From assembly GCF_048403405.1 (NCBI RefSeq), contig NZ_CP183129.1: 64,000 nt of DNA. The stretch is one strand, 5' to 3'. Made by a program: the position numbers and the translations under genes. Under the pieces are notes generated by a model. The model was not told where the DNA came from. It did no database searches and worked only from the letters and a program-made list of their open reading frames with translations. Positions 15,600 through 36,651 of the stretch are shown here, one piece after another. This DNA comes from Escherichia coli (lineage in GTDB: Bacteria > Pseudomonadota > Gammaproteobacteria > Enterobacterales > Enterobacteriaceae). Within the stretch, counting starts at the first letter, position 1; each line of letters begins with the position of its first letter.

Positions 15600-15710
15600 T
15601 AAAAAGTATTCAGAATCAGGCCGGAGTGTTTAACACTCCGTAAACACGGTCGTACATCCAGCCGGTAGCCTGGTTCCTTGCATTGAGTGATGTACGGAGT
15701 TTATAGAGCA

Positions 15711-20719: not shown

Positions 20720-20880
20720 CTTCACGCCGCAGATGCGTTGGCTGCGCTCGTTCACCCCAGTCACATAGTTATCTATGCTCCTGGGGCTTCACTCACTTGC
20801 CGCGTGATTCGGCCTTTTGGCCTCACCCCTCCGGGGCCAGCGCAAGCGCTGTTCAAAACGCAATGCGTTTTGTCCTGCAA
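20720..20880. repeat. ERIC/IRU-like intergenic repeat
   Basis: cgctcgttcaccccagtcacatagttatctatgctcctggggcttcac resembles the ERIC core (CCCCAGTCAC...GCTCCTGGGG inverted repeat); boundaries approximate. Confidence 0.55.
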
Positions 20881-22352: not shown

Positions 22353-23129
22353 ATGTCCGAAACAAAAAACGAACTTGAAGATCTGCTGGAAAAAGCAGCA
22401 ACCGAACCGGCGCACCGCCCGGCCTTTTTCCGTACGCTACTGGAATCCACCGTCTGGGTGCCGGGTACGGCGGCGCAGGGCGAGGCTGTGGTTGAAGATA
22501 GCGCGCTTGATTTACAGCACTGGGAAAAAGAAGACGGCACCAGCGTCATTCCTTTTTTTACCTCGTTAGAAGCACTTCAACAGGCGGTTGAAGACGAACA
22601 GGCATTTGTCGTAATGCCCGTTCGCACATTGTTTGAGATGACCCTTGGCGAAACGCTCTTCCTTAATGCCAAACTGCCGACCGGTAAAGAATTTATGCCG
22701 CGTGAAATCAGTTTGTTGATTGGTGAAGAAGGAAATCCGCTGAGCAGCCAGGAAGTACTGGAGGGCGGTGAATCGCTGATATTATCGGAAGTCGCAGAGC
22801 CACCAGCACAAATGATTGATTCACTCACCACCTTATTTAAAACTATTAAGCCGGTGAAGCGTGCTTTTATTTGTTCAATTAAAGAGAACGAAGAGACACA
22901 GCCTAATTTACTTATTGGCATTGAAGCCGATGGTGATATCGAAGAAATTATTCAGGCGGCGGGAAGTGTAGCGACCGATACATTACCTGGCGATGAACCC
23001 ATCGATATTTGTCAGGTGAAAAAAGGGGAAAAAGGAATTAGCCACTTTATTACCGAACATATTGCGCCATTCTATGAACGTCGCTGGGGTGGCTTTTTGC
23101 GTGACTTTAAACAGAACCGGATAATCTAA
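22353..23129 (+). CDS. sseB: SseB family protein (enhancer of serine sensitivity)
   Basis: 258 aa from ATG 22353; synteny pepB-sseB. Confidence 0.88.
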   Translation: MSETKNELEDLLEKAATEPAHRPAFFRTLLESTVWVPGTAAQGEAVVEDSALDLQHWEKEDGTSVIPFFTSLEALQQAVEDEQAFVVMPVRTLFEMTLGETLFLNAKLPTGKEFMPREISLLIGEEGNPLSSQEVLEGGESLILSEVAEPPAQMIDSLTTLFKTIKPVKRAFICSIKENEETQPNLLIGIEADGDIEEIIQAAGSVATDTLPGDEPIDICQVKKGEKGISHFITEHIAPFYERRWGGFLRDFKQNRII

Positions 23130-23132
23130 AAT

Positions 23133-23160
23133 ATGCCGCCCCAAAGGGCGGCATTCGGGC
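23133..23160 (-). terminator. Rho-independent terminator (minus-strand U-tract; hairpin may also serve sseB)
   Basis: atgccgccc-caaa-gggcggcat hairpin; on minus strand followed by ATTTT. Confidence 0.6.
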
Positions 23161-23298
23161 TTACTTGCTGCTCTGAAGTTTGTTAACCACCAGTAAATTG
23201 TTACCGGAGAGACTCCGGTTATTATTTACCTCGGTTAACAGCGCACCAGAAACAATAAGTACGATACAAAAGCACCGTATCTTCATTGTGCGGTCCAT
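23161..23298 (-). CDS. Small hydrophobic protein (45 aa from ATG 23298, or 41 aa from ATG 23286), putative membrane toxin
   Basis: MDRTMKIRCFCIVLIVSGALLTEVNNNRSLSGNNLLVVNKLQSSK; first ATG sits in loop of hairpin tgcggtc/gaccgca (23289-23310); stop abuts terminator. Confidence 0.45.
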   Translation of the reverse strand: MDRTMKIRCFCIVLIVSGALLTEVNNNRSLSGNNLLVVNKLQSSK

Positions 23299-23507
23299 GC
23301 GAAGACCGCATCACGACAGCACCACTGGCGATATTGCCGCGATAGCAAGCGCTGAGACGCGCTTGCCCTAACGGTCGCGGAACATCCTTTCCTTGAGCCA
23401 GCGCCCGCTTGCGAGACGGCGGAAAGGGCCGGTGTCGATAATACGCTAAATAAACAATGATTACTCTCTTTCGCTTGACAAAAAGAGAGTTACTGGCGAG
23501 TATTGTG

Positions 23508-23608
23508 TCCGCTGAGACGCGCTTGCATTACTACGGTAATACAATCTGCTGGAAAGGCCGCGAACCAAACCAGCAACAAATAACCGCCTGATTTTGGCGG
23601 TTTTTTGT
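23508..23608 (+). ncRNA. sRNA candidate (TimR-like antitoxin sRNA), copy 1
   Basis: TTGACA at 23475-23480 with conserved gcgagtattg downstream; strong terminator aaccgcc...ggcggtt + TTTTTT at 23582-23606; 5' region gctgagacgcgcttgc is the complement of 23351-23366 in the minus-strand transcript. Confidence 0.5.
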
Positions 23609-23784
23609 TGCTTAAAGAAAGTGAATTTACATGTTTAAGTAATATCTTTTACCGGTTAGTATTTTTAATATTGAGCGGGATTTGTTTATATTTGTCTGAA
23701 TTCGGACTGATAAGCCAAATGAATTCAAAATCTATCCTTTTTTATCTACTTGACATCGTTGATGCATAAAGCGAGTATTGAGTA

Positions 23785-23873
23785 GACGAGATACACTTGC
23801 AGTAATACAACCTGCTGGAAAGGCCGCGAACCAGACCAGCAATAAAAAACCGCCAAATTCGGCGGTTTTTTAT
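23785..23873 (+). ncRNA. sRNA candidate, tandem paralog copy 2 (also bidirectional terminator with sseA)
   Basis: Second TTGACA (23750-23755) with same gcgagtattg box; ~75-nt 3' module near-identical to copy 1 and ending in ggcgg-TTTTTT; 5' seed differs from copy 1. Confidence 0.4.
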
Positions 23874-23887
23874 TGCCTGTAAAAAGC

Positions 23888-24733
23888 TTATTTCAATGGC
23901 TCAACCGGTAAATCTGCCCGTGCGCCCCATTCACTCCATGCGCCGTCGTACAGTTTCACGTTTGGCACATCAAGTGTCGCGAGTGCCAACAAAACCACGG
24001 CTGCCGTTACACCAGAGCCGCAGCTGACGATAATCGGTTTGTCATAGCTGACGCCGCGACCAAAAAATATCGCATCCAGTTCATCGGTCGTTTTTAGTTC
24101 GCCTTCGCGCACCAGTTCCGTCCACGGAACGTTCAATGCACCGGGAATATGTCCGCGACGTAAACCTGGGCGAGGTTCATCAACTTCTGCGTTAAAACGT
24201 GCAGCCGGGCGGGCATCAATAATTTGCGCCGTATTTTCATGGCTTGCCAATAACACATCGGTGACTTTCACCACGGCTTCAGGATTAAACGTGGCGTTAA
24301 ACTCTCCTTCCGGCAGCTCTACTGCACCTTCTTCTAACAGCAGATCATCGCGCTGCCAGCCTGCAAGTCCACCCCCCAGAATCGACACTTTCTCTACACC
24401 AAAGGTGCGCAGCATCCACCATGCTCGTGGGGCTGAGAAAAGATTACCTTCGTCATAGACAATCAGGTGCTTATCCTGGTTAACGCCTAATTCACGCATC
24501 GCCACGGCGAACGTTTCCGGGCGCGGCAGCATGTGCGGAAGCGGGGAAGTGTGATCAGAAAGCGCTTCGATATCAAAAAACACTGCGCCGGGAATATGTC
24601 CATTCAGATACTCCTGAGCAACGTTACGATCTTCCTGTCCAGGCGACGCCATGCGGGCATCAATAATCTGAATTTCCGGGTCATCAATATGTTCGGCGAG
24701 CCAGTCGGCTCCTACAAACCATGTCGTGGACAT
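23888..24733 (-). CDS. sseA: 3-mercaptopyruvate sulfurtransferase (two rhodanese domains)
   Basis: 281 aa from ATG 24733 (MSTTWFVGADWL...); active-site CGSGVTA. Confidence 0.92.
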   Translation of the reverse strand: MSTTWFVGADWLAEHIDDPEIQIIDARMASPGQEDRNVAQEYLNGHIPGAVFFDIEALSDHTSPLPHMLPRPETFAVAMRELGVNQDKHLIVYDEGNLFSAPRAWWMLRTFGVEKVSILGGGLAGWQRDDLLLEEGAVELPEGEFNATFNPEAVVKVTDVLLASHENTAQIIDARPAARFNAEVDEPRPGLRRGHIPGALNVPWTELVREGELKTTDELDAIFFGRGVSYDKPIIVSCGSGVTAAVVLLALATLDVPNVKLYDGAWSEWGARADLPVEPLK

Positions 24734-35422: not shown

Positions 35423-36541
35423 ATGCATAACCAGGCTCCAATTCAACGTAGAAAATCAACACGTATTTACGTTGGGAATGTGCCGATTGGCGATGGTGCT
35501 CCCATCGCCGTACAGTCCATGACCAATACGCGTACGACAGACGTCGAAGCAACGGTCAATCAAATCAAGGCGTTGGAACGTGTTGGCGCTGATATCGTCC
35601 GTGTCTCAGTACCGACGATGGACGCGGCAGAAGCGTTCAAACTCATCAAACAGCAGGTTAACGTGCCGCTGGTGGCTGACATCCACTTCGACTATCGCAT
35701 TGCGCTGAAAGTAGCGGAATACGGCGTCGATTGTCTGCGTATTAACCCTGGCAATATCGGTAATGAAGAGCGTATTCGCATGGTGGTTGACTGTGCGCGC
35801 GATAAAAACATTCCGATCCGTATTGGCGTTAACGCCGGATCGCTGGAAAAAGATCTGCAAGAAAAGTATGGCGAACCGACGCCGCAGGCGTTGCTGGAAT
35901 CCGCCATGCGTCATGTTGATCATCTCGATCGCTTGAACTTCGATCAGTTCAAAGTCAGCGTGAAAGCGTCAGACGTCTTCCTCGCTGTTGAGTCTTATCG
36001 TTTGCTGGCAAAACAGATCGATCAGCCGCTGCATCTGGGTATCACAGAAGCCGGTGGTGCGCGCAGCGGGGCGGTTAAATCCGCCATTGGTTTAGGTCTG
36101 CTGCTGTCTGAAGGCATTGGCGACACGCTGCGCGTATCGCTGGCGGCCGATCCGGTTGAAGAGATCAAAGTCGGTTTCGATATTTTGAAATCGCTACGTA
36201 TCCGTTCGCGCGGGATCAACTTCATTGCCTGCCCGACCTGTTCGCGTCAGGAGTTTGATGTTATCGGTACGGTTAACGCGTTGGAGCAACGCCTGGAAGA
36301 TATCATCACTCCAATGGACGTTTCGATTATCGGCTGCGTGGTGAATGGCCCAGGTGAGGCGCTGGTTTCTACACTCGGCGTCACCGGCGGTAACAAGAAA
36401 AGCGGCCTCTATGAAGATGGCGTGCGCAAAGACCGTCTGGACAACAACGATATGATCGACCAGTTGGAAGCACGCATTCGTGCGAAAGCCAGTCAGCTGG
36501 ACGAAGCGCGTCGAATTGACGTTCAGCAGGTTGAAAAATAA
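35423..36541 (+). CDS. ispG: 4-hydroxy-3-methylbut-2-en-1-yl diphosphate synthase
   Basis: 372 aa; C-terminal Cys cluster CPTCSR...GCVVNGPGE. Confidence 0.95.
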
Positions 36542-36651
36542 TAACGTGATGGGAAGCGCCTCGCTTCCCGTGTATGATTGACCCCGCATGGCTCCCGAAA
36601 CATTGAGGGAAGCATTGAGGGTTCATTTTTATATTCAGAAAGAGAATAAAC

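What the first reader, a model, noticed from the sequence alone, without database searches (positions are those of the whole stretch)
23133..23880. ryfA-like type I toxin-antitoxin-style locus with tandem sibling sRNA modules
The sseB-sseA intergenic region (~760 bp) holds a minus-strand transcription unit ending at a strong terminator that encodes a 41-45-aa hydrophobic peptide. It also holds two plus-strand promoter-plus-terminator modules sharing a conserved gcgagtattg box and a near-identical ~75-nt 3' body. The 5' segment of copy 1 (gctgagacgcgcttgc, ~23511-23526) is perfectly complementary to 23351-23366 in the putative 5' UTR of the minus-strand mRNA, a trans-pairing arrangement expected for an antitoxin sRNA. 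Copy 2 has a diverged 5' seed, so it may have a different target or be a decaying duplicate.
Basis: partly seen in the sequence, partly recalled or inferred. Interest (0 to 1): 0.6.

Follow-up and report, generated by a model that had tools for sequence, protein, structure and literature searches.

The report
Known timP/TimR toxin-antitoxin, spare antitoxin
This is the already published and annotated E. coli timP (ryfA)/TimR small-toxin and antisense-RNA locus; the only fresh point is that its second small-RNA gene is an intact "spare key" that matches a different version of the toxin mRNA found in other E. coli strains.

Summary
The window is E. coli. Bases 23128-23432(-) are ryfA (Rfam, 309 bits), now called timP. 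[quoted passage not shown] Plus-strand copy 1 is the cognate antitoxin sRNA TimR (RyfB): its 5' end matches stem-loop 2 of the timP 5'UTR over 17 nt, the published mechanism.

Copy 2 is not a decaying duplicate. Its promoter and seed are 100% identical to the TimR that is cognate (17/17 nt) to a rare timP allele, "class D". In 5,426 complete E. coli genomes, 394 carry this TimR-D, 39 carry timP-D, and all 39 of those carry TimR-D. The window's combination (timP-A, TimR-A, solo TimR-D) occurs in 354 genomes.

More generally, the timP SL2 and the TimR seed co-vary in four classes. About 35% of genomes, including K-12, carry a solo TimR of a foreign class; K-12's timP-adjacent TimR is the non-cognate one. 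I found no paper describing this. Whether the solo copy is expressed or does anything is untested.

The parts
23128..23432 (-). timP mRNA (formerly the sRNA RyfA), about 305 nt
   Evidence: Rfam RF00126 ryfA, 309.3 bits (gathering score 80), full-length model match 1-296. Present in 5,425 of 5,426 complete E. coli genomes.
23133..23154 (-). Intrinsic terminator of timP
   Evidence: Terminator scan: 9-bp stem with 7 G-C pairs, followed by a T-rich tail. It is the last helix of the Rfam alignment.
23161..23286 (-). TimP coding sequence, 41 aa (MKIRCFCIVLIVSGALLTEVNNNRSLSGNNLLVVNKLQSSK). An in-frame upstream ATG at 23298 would give 45 aa.
   Evidence: ORF list. [quoted passage not shown] NCBIfam NF040796.1 toxic_TimP, 83.9 bits against a cutoff of 45.
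23288..23309 (-). Conserved stem just upstream of and over the start codon region (GCGGUCUUCGCAUGGACCGCAC). This is the SD-sequestering stem-loop SL4 of the published timP 5'UTR model.
   Evidence: Unique pattern match in the window. It is a paired helix in the Rfam ryfA consensus. Equating it with SL4 is an inference from PMC11228461.
23345..23366 (-). Stem-loop 2 of the timP 5'UTR (GCAAGCGC-GUCUCA-GCGCUUGC), the TimR-binding site, specificity class A. The 17-nt pairing tract is 23350-23366, about mRNA positions 67-83, which is 64-80 nt upstream of the start codon.
   Evidence: Helix in the Rfam alignment and in the MFE fold. 17-nt exact repeat D3. This is the hypervariable block in alignments. 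The TimR site is in SL2 according to PMC11228461.
23438..23443 (-). Candidate -10 hexamer (TATTAT on the minus strand) of the timP promoter, 6-7 nt upstream of the Rfam 5' end
   Evidence: Read from the sequence. Not flagged by the consensus scan, and no good -35. Inferred only.
23475..23503 (+). Promoter of TimR copy 1: TTGACA (23475-23480), 17-nt spacer, GAGTAT (23498-23503)
   Evidence: Read from the sequence. The box is conserved with copy 2 (D6) and across E. coli loci. There are no transcription data for this strain.
23510..23608 (+). TimR copy 1 (class A, cognate antitoxin sRNA, also called RyfB), about 99 nt. It consists of the seed (23510-23526), hairpin 1 (23527-23540), hairpin 2 (23547-23575) and the terminator (23576-23608).
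   Evidence: 17/17 match to SL2. Duplex -47.8 kcal/mol, z -5.2 / -4.6. Fold. Terminator scan. The 5' end is predicted from the -10 box, not measured.
23609..23744 (.). AT-rich spacer between the two sRNA genes. It carries the Rfam 'IS128' hit (23564-23741, minus strand).
   Evidence: RF00125, 178.8 bits. In loci with two complete timP/TimR modules, the same sequence is the spacer between module 1's TimR terminator and the 3' end of the second timP. It is absent from one-copy strains.
23750..23778 (+). Promoter of TimR copy 2: TTGACA (23750-23755), 17-nt spacer, GAGTAT (23773-23778)
   Evidence: Read from the sequence. 100% identical to the promoter of the cognate TimR-D in strain 1190. No segregating site among 4 window-type loci.
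23784..23876 (+). TimR copy 2 (class D), a solo antitoxin-type sRNA gene that is non-cognate in this strain. It consists of the seed (23785-23801, GACGAGATACACTTGCA), hairpin 2 (23813-23841) and the terminator (23842-23873). It has no hairpin 1.
   Evidence: At most 5 nt match to the resident SL2, duplex z -1.3 / -1.4. 17/17 match to timP class D SL2 in L134 and L180, duplex -41.8 kcal/mol, z -6.1. Present in 394 of 5,426 genomes.

Best explanation
The region is the enterobacterial timP/TimR (ryfA/ryfB) type I toxin-antitoxin locus in its usual place between sseB and sseA.

How the core system works. The minus strand makes a roughly 305-nt mRNA that encodes the 41-aa inner-membrane toxin TimP. 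The plus strand, transcribed divergently and without overlapping timP, makes TimR copy 1. The 5' end of copy 1 pairs over 17 nt with stem-loop 2 of the timP 5'UTR, 64-80 nt upstream of the start codon. In the published Salmonella work this pairing blocks the conformational switch (pseudoknot formation) that the mRNA needs in order to be translated, so TimP is not made.

What copy 2 is. It is a second TimR-family gene with the same promoter type and the same 3' body, but its seed belongs to a different specificity class (D). It cannot pair with the resident class A timP. It pairs perfectly with the class D timP allele carried by a minority of other E. coli strains, where this same gene is the cognate antitoxin. 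In this strain it is therefore a solo, non-cognate antitoxin gene. It is most likely left over from recombination among allelic or duplicated timP/TimR modules, which share conserved bodies and flanks.

Shown here: the identity of every part, the complementarities, the co-variation, and the population counts.
Taken from the literature: TimP toxicity, translational repression by TimR, and the SL2 binding site.
Inferred: that copy 2 is transcribed here (from sequence identity with the functional copy), the transcription start sites, and how copy 2 arose.
For: Identity of the locus:
- Rfam ryfA, 309 bits.
- NCBIfam TimP, 83.9 bits against a cutoff of 45.
- RefSeq timP CDS and sseB/sseA context in the 100%-identical strain and in K-12.
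- Published mechanism with compensatory mutations, in vitro translation and structure probing (PMC7667032 sections 10, 11 and 13; PMC11228461; PMC13000454).

Cognate pairing of copy 1:
- 17-nt exact match, about 1.7e-5 expected by chance.
- Duplex -47.8 kcal/mol, z about -5.

Co-variation:
- SL2 and the TimR seed differ between E. coli classes A, B, C and D and between genera, yet match within each locus.
- The cognate ungapped run is 16-20 nt (median 19); the non-cognate median is 9.

Copy 2 is TimR class D:
- 17/17 match to timP-D SL2 in L134 and in complete genome L180.
- Reciprocal specificity in the duplex matrix: A x A -47.8, D x D -41.8, A x D -36.0, D x A -28.2 kcal/mol.
- Promoter and seed 100% identical between the window and the class D strain.

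Census of 5,426 complete genomes:
- TimR-D in 394, timP-D in 39, and all 39 of those also carry TimR-D.
- timP-A with TimR-D, the window type, in 354.
- timP-B with TimR-A, the K-12 type, in 1,554.
- The cognate TimR accompanies about 99.6% of timP-A and about 98% of timP-B.
- At most about 178 extra timP copies against roughly 2,000 extra TimR genes.

Architecture:
- Two-module loci exist (L154, L159).
- K-12 and L140 retain 17 nt of a deleted second timP.

No decay of copy 2: 1 of 132 segregating sites against 9 of 136 in the neighbouring spacer, Fisher p = 0.019, from 4 loci only.
Against: - No expression data for either plus-strand gene in this strain. The start sites are predicted from a -10 box (GAGTAT) that the consensus scan did not flag.
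- Three E. coli and Shigella studies did not detect, or saw no phenotypic role for, the ryfA-encoded peptide and treat RyfA as a regulatory RNA (PMC8205139, PMC13188913, PMC5333039). TimP toxicity has therefore been demonstrated only for the Salmonella homologue.
- Copy 2 lacks hairpin 1 of copy 1, and its pairing to timP-D has not been tested experimentally.
- The allele totals for timP-A, TimR-A, timP-B and TimR-B were derived by inclusion-exclusion from probe searches that need a 28-nt exact word, so rare variants are missed and the 'both' counts are lower bounds.
- The conservation test rests on four loci and could reflect recent shared ancestry or mosaic recombination rather than selection.
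- K-12's arrangement (timP-B beside TimR-A) cannot be derived from the observed two-module loci by a single deletion, so the proposed history is incomplete.
Confidence: 0.9

Rival explanations
1. Copy 2 is a decaying, non-functional duplicate of TimR. Its seed drifted after duplication and it no longer does anything.
For: It does not pair with the resident timP (at most 5 nt, z -1.3). It lacks hairpin 1 of copy 1. One-copy strains do without it.
Against: Its seed is not random drift: it matches timP class D over 17/17 nt. The gene, promoter included, is 100% identical to the only cognate TimR of class D strains. All 394 genomes carry it at 98% identity or better over the 52-nt probe. It has 1 of 132 segregating sites against 9 of 136 in the adjacent spacer. 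Its TTGACA-17-GAGTAT promoter and strong terminator are intact.
Confidence: 0.1
2. Copy 2 is kept because it is useful as a spare antitoxin. It neutralises timP class D mRNA arriving by recombination or transfer. It thereby permits replacement of the resident timP allele, after which the former cognate TimR becomes the solo one, as in K-12.
For: Every one of the 39 timP-D genomes has TimR-D, and it sits in the same slot as in the window. L140 (timP-A, TimR-A, TimR-B) and K-12 (timP-B, TimR-A, TimR-B) have the same architecture and differ in the SL2 class of timP. That is the pattern expected if SL2 was swapped in a genome already holding the matching TimR. About 35% of genomes hold a solo foreign-class TimR. 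Copy 2 shows low polymorphism.
Against: The same pattern arises neutrally from deletion of one toxin gene in two-module loci and from hitch-hiking in a 760-bp region. In Salmonella, deleting timR is tolerated (PMC7667032 abstract), so the selective pressure for a spare antitoxin may be weak. There is no experimental or phylogenetic test here.
Confidence: 0.2
3. Copy 2 (and perhaps TimR in general) is a trans-acting regulatory sRNA with targets outside the locus, so its seed is tuned to another mRNA and not to timP.
For: In avian pathogenic E. coli, the phenotypes of a ryfA deletion disappear when timR is also deleted. The authors read this as TimR acting on other targets when RyfA is absent (PMC13188913). 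RyfA1 overproduction lowers ompC mRNA in Shigella (PMC5333039).
Against: The seed matches a timP allele perfectly over 17 nt, which suffices to explain its sequence. No other target could be looked for with only a 64-kb window. The 52-nt probe has exactly one place per genome.
Confidence: 0.15
4. ryfA acts in E. coli purely as a non-coding regulatory RNA. The ORF is not translated, so the locus is an sRNA and anti-sRNA pair rather than a toxin-antitoxin system.
For: ORF-disrupting ryfA variants still complemented the UPEC phenotypes (PMC8205139). No peptide was detected in S. dysenteriae (PMC5333039). Loss of timR has little effect in APEC (PMC13188913).
Against: The ORF is conserved and passes the curated TimP model. 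The Salmonella homologue is translated, membrane-localised and toxic, and native TimP appears on timR deletion (PMC7667032). A regulatory role of the RNA and a coding role are not mutually exclusive.
Confidence: 0.15

Closest known systems
timP/TimR type I toxin-antitoxin system of Salmonella enterica serovar Typhimurium (Andresen et al. 2020, PMC7667032; PMC11228461; PMC13000454)
   Same: Same RNA family (Rfam ryfA) and same small protein family (NCBIfam TimP). The sRNA is likewise divergent and non-overlapping, and its 5' end pairs with a continuous 17-18 nt tract in stem-loop 2 of the 5'UTR, far upstream of the ribosome-binding site. The chromosomal neighbourhood is the same (sseB side).
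   Different: Salmonella is described with one TimR and has STM2534 between timP and sseA. This E. coli locus has a second TimR-type gene of another seed class and the IS128 spacer. TimP toxicity and TimR repression have not been shown for the E. coli alleles.
RyfA1/RyfB1 and RyfA2/RyfB2 sibling modules of Shigella dysenteriae (Fris et al. 2017, PMC5333039)
   Same: Same locus and family. That paper already reports a 'variable region' in RyfA that overlaps the RyfB-complementary tract, four versions of it in Escherichia and Shigella (CGCGT, TGTTT, CACCC, CCCCC, which are my classes A, B and C), and experimental specificity of RyfB1 for RyfA1 over RyfA2. Two-module loci of this kind occur in my sample (L154, L159).
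   Different: The window has a single ryfA/timP but two RyfB/TimR genes, so one sRNA has no partner. Its seed class (D, TGTAT on the RNA strand) is not among the four published versions.
Other chromosomal type I systems with a divergent, trans-pairing antitoxin: tisB/istR-1, shoB/ohsC, zorO/orzO, dinQ/agrB (named from my own knowledge and from the introductions of PMC7667032 and PMC11228461)
   Same: A small hydrophobic membrane toxin. The antitoxin sRNA is encoded next to the toxin gene, not opposite it, and pairs with a limited tract in the 5'UTR.
   Different: Different RNA and protein families. Most of those mRNAs need nucleolytic processing to become translatable, whereas timP uses a structural switch (PMC11228461, PMC13000454). 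The sub-threshold Rfam AgrB hit on copy 2 (28.8 bits against 40) is not evidence of relationship.
Multi-copy type I families with copy-specific antitoxins (Ibs/Sib, Ldr/Rdl, hok/sok) and orphan antitoxins of type II systems (from my own knowledge; reviews PMC10305079 and PMC7354431 appeared but were not read)
   Same: Paralogous toxin-antitoxin pairs kept insulated by a few variable nucleotides or residues, and antitoxin genes that persist without their toxin.
   Different: There the copies sit at several loci within one genome. Here the specificity classes are mainly alleles of one locus spread across strains, and the leftover partner is an sRNA gene in tandem with the cognate one.

Membership tests
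timP/TimR (ryfA/ryfB) type I toxin-antitoxin system | Toxin transcript belongs to the ryfA RNA family (sequence plus conserved secondary structure) | tested here: met
   RF00126, 309.3 bits against a gathering score of 80, full-length match, 23128-23432(-).
timP/TimR (ryfA/ryfB) type I toxin-antitoxin system | Small ORF encoding TimP (about 38-45 aa, hydrophobic N-terminal signal-like segment) | tested here: met
   41-aa ORF at 23161-23286(-). NCBIfam NF040796.1, 83.9 bits against a cutoff of 45, profile positions 1-40 of 40. RefSeq annotation as timP.
timP/TimR (ryfA/ryfB) type I toxin-antitoxin system | Divergent, non-overlapping sRNA gene upstream of timP whose 5' region is complementary to stem-loop 2 of the timP 5'UTR and which ends in an intrinsic terminator | tested here: met
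   Copy 1: 17/17 nt, 23510-23526 against 23350-23366. Duplex z about -5. Terminator at 23582-23602. Co-variation across classes and genera.
timP/TimR (ryfA/ryfB) type I toxin-antitoxin system | Chromosomal position next to sseB (E. coli: between sseB and sseA) | tested here: met
   Flanking ORFs and RefSeq annotation.
timP/TimR (ryfA/ryfB) type I toxin-antitoxin system | TimP is toxic when overproduced, and TimR represses its translation by base pairing | not testable with these tools
   Shown for Salmonella (PMC7667032). Not shown for E. coli alleles; E. coli and Shigella studies did not detect the peptide or found no phenotypic role for it.
TimR/RyfB sRNA family (applied to copy 2, 23784-23876) | Same promoter type and homologous 3' body and terminator as a bona fide TimR | tested here: met
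   TTGACA-17-GAGTAT in both copies. 70-nt body 84% identical. The 21-nt core CTGCTGGAAAGGCCGCGAACC is exact in both copies and in every E. coli TimR seen.
TimR/RyfB sRNA family (applied to copy 2, 23784-23876) | Seed complementary to the timP mRNA of its own locus (cognate antitoxin) | tested here: not met
   Longest match 5 nt. Duplex -28.2 kcal/mol, z -1.3 / -1.4.
TimR/RyfB sRNA family (applied to copy 2, 23784-23876) | Seed complementary to stem-loop 2 of some timP allele | tested here: met
   17/17 nt to timP class D in L134 and L180. Duplex -41.8 kcal/mol, z -6.1. timP-D is in 39 complete genomes, all of which carry this TimR.
TimR/RyfB sRNA family (applied to copy 2, 23784-23876) | Transcribed as a stable small RNA | not testable with these tools
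   No expression data available. Inferred from 100% identity of promoter and seed with the cognate TimR-D of class D strains.
Sibling ryfA1/ryfA2 arrangement (S. dysenteriae type, two complete modules) | Two ryfA/timP genes in tandem, each with its own divergent RyfB | tested here: not met
   Only one ryfA hit and one match of the ryfA SD-stem motif in the 64-kb window. No timP fragment in the spacer. Two-module loci do exist elsewhere (L154, L159, L166).
Rfam IS128 RNA (RF00125) | Score above the curated gathering threshold | tested here: met
   178.8 bits against 80 at 23564-23741(-). The family is a computational sRNA candidate. Here it coincides with the inter-module spacer plus the antisense of TimR copy 1's terminator. 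Whether it is a real RNA was not tested.

The most novel reading that the evidence does not exclude
E. coli timP/TimR is a multi-allelic lock-and-key system with at least four specificity classes of SL2 and seed. Roughly a third of strains, K-12 included, keep a solo TimR of a foreign class. These spare antitoxins would be maintained by selection because they neutralise, and thereby license, incoming timP alleles, so that toxin specificity can be exchanged between lineages without a lethal intermediate. A practical corollary: in K-12 the TimR gene next to timP is the non-cognate one, and the real antitoxin is the sseA-proximal copy.
Probability: 0.2. Interest if true: 0.55.

Novelty: already known. 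Interest (0 to 1): 0.25.

Why it matters
The core finding adds nothing new. The locus is named, annotated by RefSeq and mechanistically studied.

The by-product has some practical value. Anyone deleting or probing 'timR' in E. coli needs to know three things:
- Many strains carry two TimR genes of different specificity.
- In K-12-type strains (1,554 of 5,426 genomes) the timP-adjacent copy is predicted not to pair with the resident timP.
- A fifth SL2 version (class D) exists beyond the four published.

This may bear on the puzzling E. coli phenotypes, in which a timR deletion is nearly silent and RyfA-independent TimR effects are seen. If the solo copies turn out to be selected, the locus would be a compact natural example of how RNA-based toxin-antitoxin specificity diversifies and is exchanged within a species.

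Tried and rejected
(1) The genome-contig scan with the ryfA SD-stem motif GCGGTCNNNGCANNGACCGCAC. The cross-genus sample is therefore small and has no Salmonella or Klebsiella.

(2) Copy 2 pairing with the resident timP: rejected.

(3) Copy 2 as a decayed duplicate: rejected.

(4) The spacer (IS128) as a degenerate second timP. BLAST with word size 9 finds no timP piece inside it in the window. The 13-nt repeat D5 is not supported by anything longer. In two-module loci the spacer is simply what lies between the modules.

(5) Kinship of copy 2 with AgrB, RNAI or leader families: all Rfam hits are below their gathering scores and sit on the terminator hairpin.

(6) A simple deletion history from the observed two-module loci to K-12. 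It does not work: K-12 has timP-B beside TimR-A, whereas L154 has timP-B beside TimR-B. An extra recombination or conversion step is needed, and I could not resolve it.

(7) Literature search for a description of the second TimR copy. I found nothing in the ten bacterial papers read that mention TimR, RyfB, RyfA or IS128. Figure S1 and Fig. 8B of PMC7667032 and the supplementary alignments of PMC11228461 could not be viewed, so a depiction there cannot be excluded.
Full report
**1. What is there**

The window is Escherichia coli: bases 23100-23900 are 100% identical to strain TUM14771 and match 5,425 of 5,426 complete genomes. Bases 23130-23887 are the 758-bp gap between sseB (ends 23129, plus strand) and sseA (minus strand, ends 23888).

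Rfam places ryfA (RF00126) at 23128-23432 on the minus strand, with 309 bits against a gathering score of 80 and a full-length match. It also places the candidate family IS128 (RF00125) at 23564-23741 on the minus strand.

[quoted passage not shown] The corresponding window ORF (23161-23286, minus strand) scores 83.9 bits on NCBIfam NF040796 (cutoff 45).

**2. Check of the observation**

- Minus-strand unit: it ends in a 9-bp, 7-GC hairpin with a T-tail at 23154-23133.
- Two plus-strand modules: they share GCGAGTATTGNGT (12 of 13 identical) and a 70-nt 3' body that is 84% identical.
- Promoters: both read TTGACA-17 nt-GAGTAT (23475-23503 and 23750-23778). I read this from the sequence. The consensus scan did not flag them, because GAGTAT is a weak -10.
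- Terminators: both modules end in strong terminator hairpins.
- Complementarity: it is 17 nt, not 16. On the plus strand 23350-23366 equals 23510-23526, so the two oppositely transcribed RNAs are perfectly complementary there. About 1.7e-5 such repeats are expected by chance.
- Duplex energies: the predicted duplex of copy 1 with the timP 5'UTR is -47.8 kcal/mol, z = -5.2 against shuffles. For copy 2 it is -28.2 kcal/mol, z = -1.3.

**3. What it is**

This is the published timP/TimR system.

- Andresen et al. 2020 (PMC7667032) showed in Salmonella that ryfA encodes the toxic inner-membrane protein TimP. They also showed that the divergently encoded sRNA TimR pairs through its 5' region with an 18-nt tract of the timP 5'UTR to block translation. 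The evidence included compensatory mutations and in vitro translation.
- The same paper reports that every timP-bearing enterobacterium examined has such a complementary, terminator-ended sRNA gene upstream on the opposite strand.
- The binding site lies in stem-loop 2. Translation requires a pseudoknot-dependent structural switch, which TimR prevents (PMC11228461, PMC13000454).
- In the window, the 17-nt tract covers the 5' arm, the loop and the start of the 3' arm of the hairpin GCAAGCGC-GUCUCA-GCGCUUGC (23345-23366). That is about mRNA positions 67-83, which is 64-80 nt upstream of the start codon, and it fits the published model.
- In Shigella dysenteriae the same genes were described earlier as RyfA1/RyfB1 and RyfA2/RyfB2 (PMC5333039).

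Copy 1 is therefore the cognate TimR/RyfB of this strain.

**4. What copy 2 is**

Aligning the intergenic region with other E. coli strains showed two things. The SL2 tract of timP and the 5' seed of the plus-strand sRNA are the most variable parts of the region, and they change together.

I scanned metagenome contigs for the invariant 21-nt TimR core. This returned 53 contigs. I parsed them together with six complete-genome loci fetched at that point and 13 loci from other Enterobacterales. Two further complete-genome loci, L180 and L181, were fetched later.

Four classes appear in E. coli (sequences written on the window's plus strand):

| Class | timP SL2 | TimR seed |
|---|---|---|
| A | GCGCTGAGACGCGCTTGC | CGCTGAGACGCGCTTGC |
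| B | GCGCTGTGAAACACCTGC | GCTGTGAAGCACCTGC |
| C | GCACTGTGGGGTGCCTG | CACTGTGGGGTGCCTGC |
| D | GCGACGAGATACACTTGC | GACGAGATACACTTGCA |

Classes A, B and C correspond to the CGCGT, TGTTT and CACCC/CCCCC 'variable region' versions of Fris et al.. Class D is not in their list.

The window carries timP-A, TimR-A in the first slot and TimR-D in the second slot. In contig L134 and in complete genome L180 (strain 1190), timP carries SL2-D, and the second-slot sRNA matches it over 17/17 nt. That sRNA has a promoter and seed 100% identical to the window's copy 2.

The duplex matrix is reciprocal:

| sRNA x mRNA | dG (kcal/mol) | z vs shuffles |
|---|---|---|
| TimR-A x timP-A | -47.8 | -4.6 |
| TimR-D x timP-D | -41.8 | -6.1 |
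| TimR-A x timP-D | -36.0 | -2.3 |
| TimR-D x timP-A | -28.2 | -1.4 |

Across 13 distinct loci from five genera, the cognate ungapped run (Watson-Crick plus G-U) is 16-20 nt, median 19. The non-cognate median is 9. The high off-diagonal values come from sister species with the same allele, plus one G-U-mediated case: TimR-C on timP-B, 18 nt.

**5. Census**

Megablast needs a 28-nt exact word, so probes of about 50 nt with short conserved flanks are class-specific.

Measured in 5,426 complete genomes:

| Probe(s) | Genomes with any match | Genomes with both, joined |
|---|---|---|
| TimR-D | 394 | n/a |
| timP-D | 39 | n/a |
| timP-D + TimR-D | 394 | 36 |
| timP-A + TimR-D | 2,947 | 354 |
| timP-A + TimR-A | 4,543 | 2,894 |
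| timP-B + TimR-A | 4,873 | 1,554 |
| timP-B + TimR-B | 2,111 | 1,863 |
| timP-C + TimR-C | 580 | 526 |

The union equals the TimR-D count, so every timP-D genome also has TimR-D.

Derived by inclusion-exclusion: timP-A about 2,907; TimR-A about 4,530; timP-B about 1,897; TimR-B about 2,077.

- The four timP classes sum to about 5,423 genomes.
- The timP 3' half gives 5,603 places in 5,425 genomes, so at most about 178 second toxin genes exist.
- TimR genes outnumber timP genes by roughly 2,000.
- At least 1,908 genomes (35%) were directly seen with a foreign-class TimR beside timP. Of these, 1,554 are of the K-12 type and 354 of the window type.
- In K-12 itself the timP-adjacent TimR is class A (at most 11 nt pairing, even allowing G-U). 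The cognate class B copy is the sseA-proximal one, with 20 nt including one G-U.
- A cognate TimR accompanies about 99.6% of timP-A, about 98% of timP-B and all timP-D genomes.

These counts miss variants that lack a 28-mer, and the 'both' figures are lower bounds.

**6. Architecture and origin**

Mapping pieces of the window locus onto other architectures gives the following.

- Two-module loci (L154, L159, L166) read: timP, TimR, IS128 spacer, timP, TimR. This is the S. dysenteriae sibling arrangement.
- K-12 and L140 keep the spacer plus only 17 nt of the second timP's 5' end and its promoter region. A second toxin gene was deleted there, leaving its sRNA.
- One-copy strains (ST95, O157) lack exactly one repeat unit. 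Their single TimR has the first-slot seed joined to the second-slot type of 3' end, as expected from recombination between the conserved bodies.
- The window type has the full spacer and a distinct 39-nt promoter segment in front of TimR-D, with no timP remnant.

L140 (timP-A, TimR-A, TimR-B) and K-12 (timP-B, TimR-A, TimR-B) differ in the SL2 class within the same architecture. This implies an SL2 exchange by recombination, not a deletion. I could not reconstruct the full history.

Among four window-type loci, the TimR-D module has 1 segregating site in 132 nt, against 9 in 136 nt in the adjacent spacer (Fisher p = 0.019) and 13 in 77 nt in the divergent promoter region. This is suggestive of constraint. 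However, the sample is tiny and mosaic ancestry could produce the same pattern.

**7. Mechanism and caveats**

- Shown here: identity of the parts, complementarity, co-variation and population structure.
- Taken from the literature: TimP toxicity, TimR-mediated translational repression, and the SL2 site.
- Inferred: transcription start sites, expression of copy 2 in this strain, and its evolutionary origin.

It should be kept in mind that E. coli and Shigella studies did not detect the peptide, or found the ORF dispensable for ryfA phenotypes. They treat RyfA and TimR as interacting regulatory RNAs (PMC8205139, PMC13188913, PMC5333039). The APEC study reports that the ryfA-deletion phenotypes vanish in the double mutant. 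This leaves room for TimR targets outside the locus.

**8. Novelty and verdict**

The locus, its mechanism, the sibling arrangement and the existence of a variable region overlapping the pairing tract are all published, and RefSeq annotates timP here.

None of the papers I could read describes the following:
- solo, foreign-class TimR genes in single-timP loci;
- the fact that K-12's timP-adjacent TimR is non-cognate;
- SL2 class D.

The relevant supplementary figures could not be inspected. I rate the finding as already known, of low interest, with a modest novel by-product.

Noticed in passing
window 23564-23741 (-), spacer 23609-23744: There is a strong Rfam hit to the candidate sRNA family IS128 (178.8 bits). 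It consists of the AT-rich spacer between the two TimR genes plus the antisense of TimR copy 1's terminator. In two-module loci the same sequence separates module 1's TimR from the 3' end of the second timP, and it is absent from one-copy strains. Whether any RNA is made from it is unknown.
   Followed up: partly
L006 (E. coli 06-00048) 2001-2339; L073 (Citrobacter amalonaticus); L168 (metagenome): In three independent loci the timP SL2 runs straight into the TimR body: the body lies 76-81 nt after the ryfA SD-stem motif in L006 and L073, against 236-243 nt normally. This is the product expected from deletion between the 17-nt SL2/seed direct repeat. It removes both promoters and the timP 5' end in one step, a built-in way to lose toxin and antitoxin together.
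   Followed up: partly
L178 and L151 (metagenome contigs): L178 has timP-B with only a TimR-A (seed A fused to the second-slot type of body). That is the product expected from recombination between the two TimR bodies of a K-12-type locus, and it leaves the toxin without its cognate sRNA. L151 has timP-A with only a mutated TimR-B, an altered TimP (…GALFPQVNNN…) and a deletion into the sseA 3' end. Either could be an assembly chimera. In complete genomes about 0.4-2% of timP-A and timP-B lack a joined cognate probe.
   Followed up: partly
L002 (E. coli K-12 MG1655), locus 1531-2347: In K-12 the TimR gene next to timP has the class A seed and is predicted not to pair with K-12's class B timP. 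The cognate class B TimR is the sseA-proximal copy, preceded by a 17-nt remnant of a deleted second timP. This matters for the design of timR deletions and probes in K-12.
   Followed up: yes
L180 (E. coli strain 1190) about 1715-2282; L006 2391-3748; H27 (strain PK8277): Insertion sequences land repeatedly in this intergenic region. An IS200/IS605 sits immediately after hairpin 2 of TimR-D, replacing its terminator with the element's own hairpin. An ISEcB1 lies between timP and sseA. An IS1 is present in another strain.
   Followed up: no
O157-type TimR-C seed against K-12-type timP-B SL2 (L004, L156): If G-U pairs are allowed, the class C seed gives an 18-nt ungapped run on class B SL2, while the reverse combination gives only 7. 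This points to possible one-way cross-reactivity between classes.
   Followed up: no
window 23793-23874 (+): Copy 2 gives a sub-threshold Rfam hit to AgrB, the antitoxin sRNA of dinQ (RF02891, 28.8 bits against a gathering score of 40, E = 0.014). Most of it lies on the terminator hairpin, and it is probably not meaningful.
   Followed up: no
window 15600-15709 (+), 36541-36632 (+), 20808-20880 (-): There are other Rfam hits above gathering score in the window: the iscR stability element iscRS (131.7 bits), sroE (108.3 bits), and a marginal hit to Aggregatibacter sRNA 22 (45.3 bits against 39.8) upstream of or within the start of pepB.
   Followed up: no
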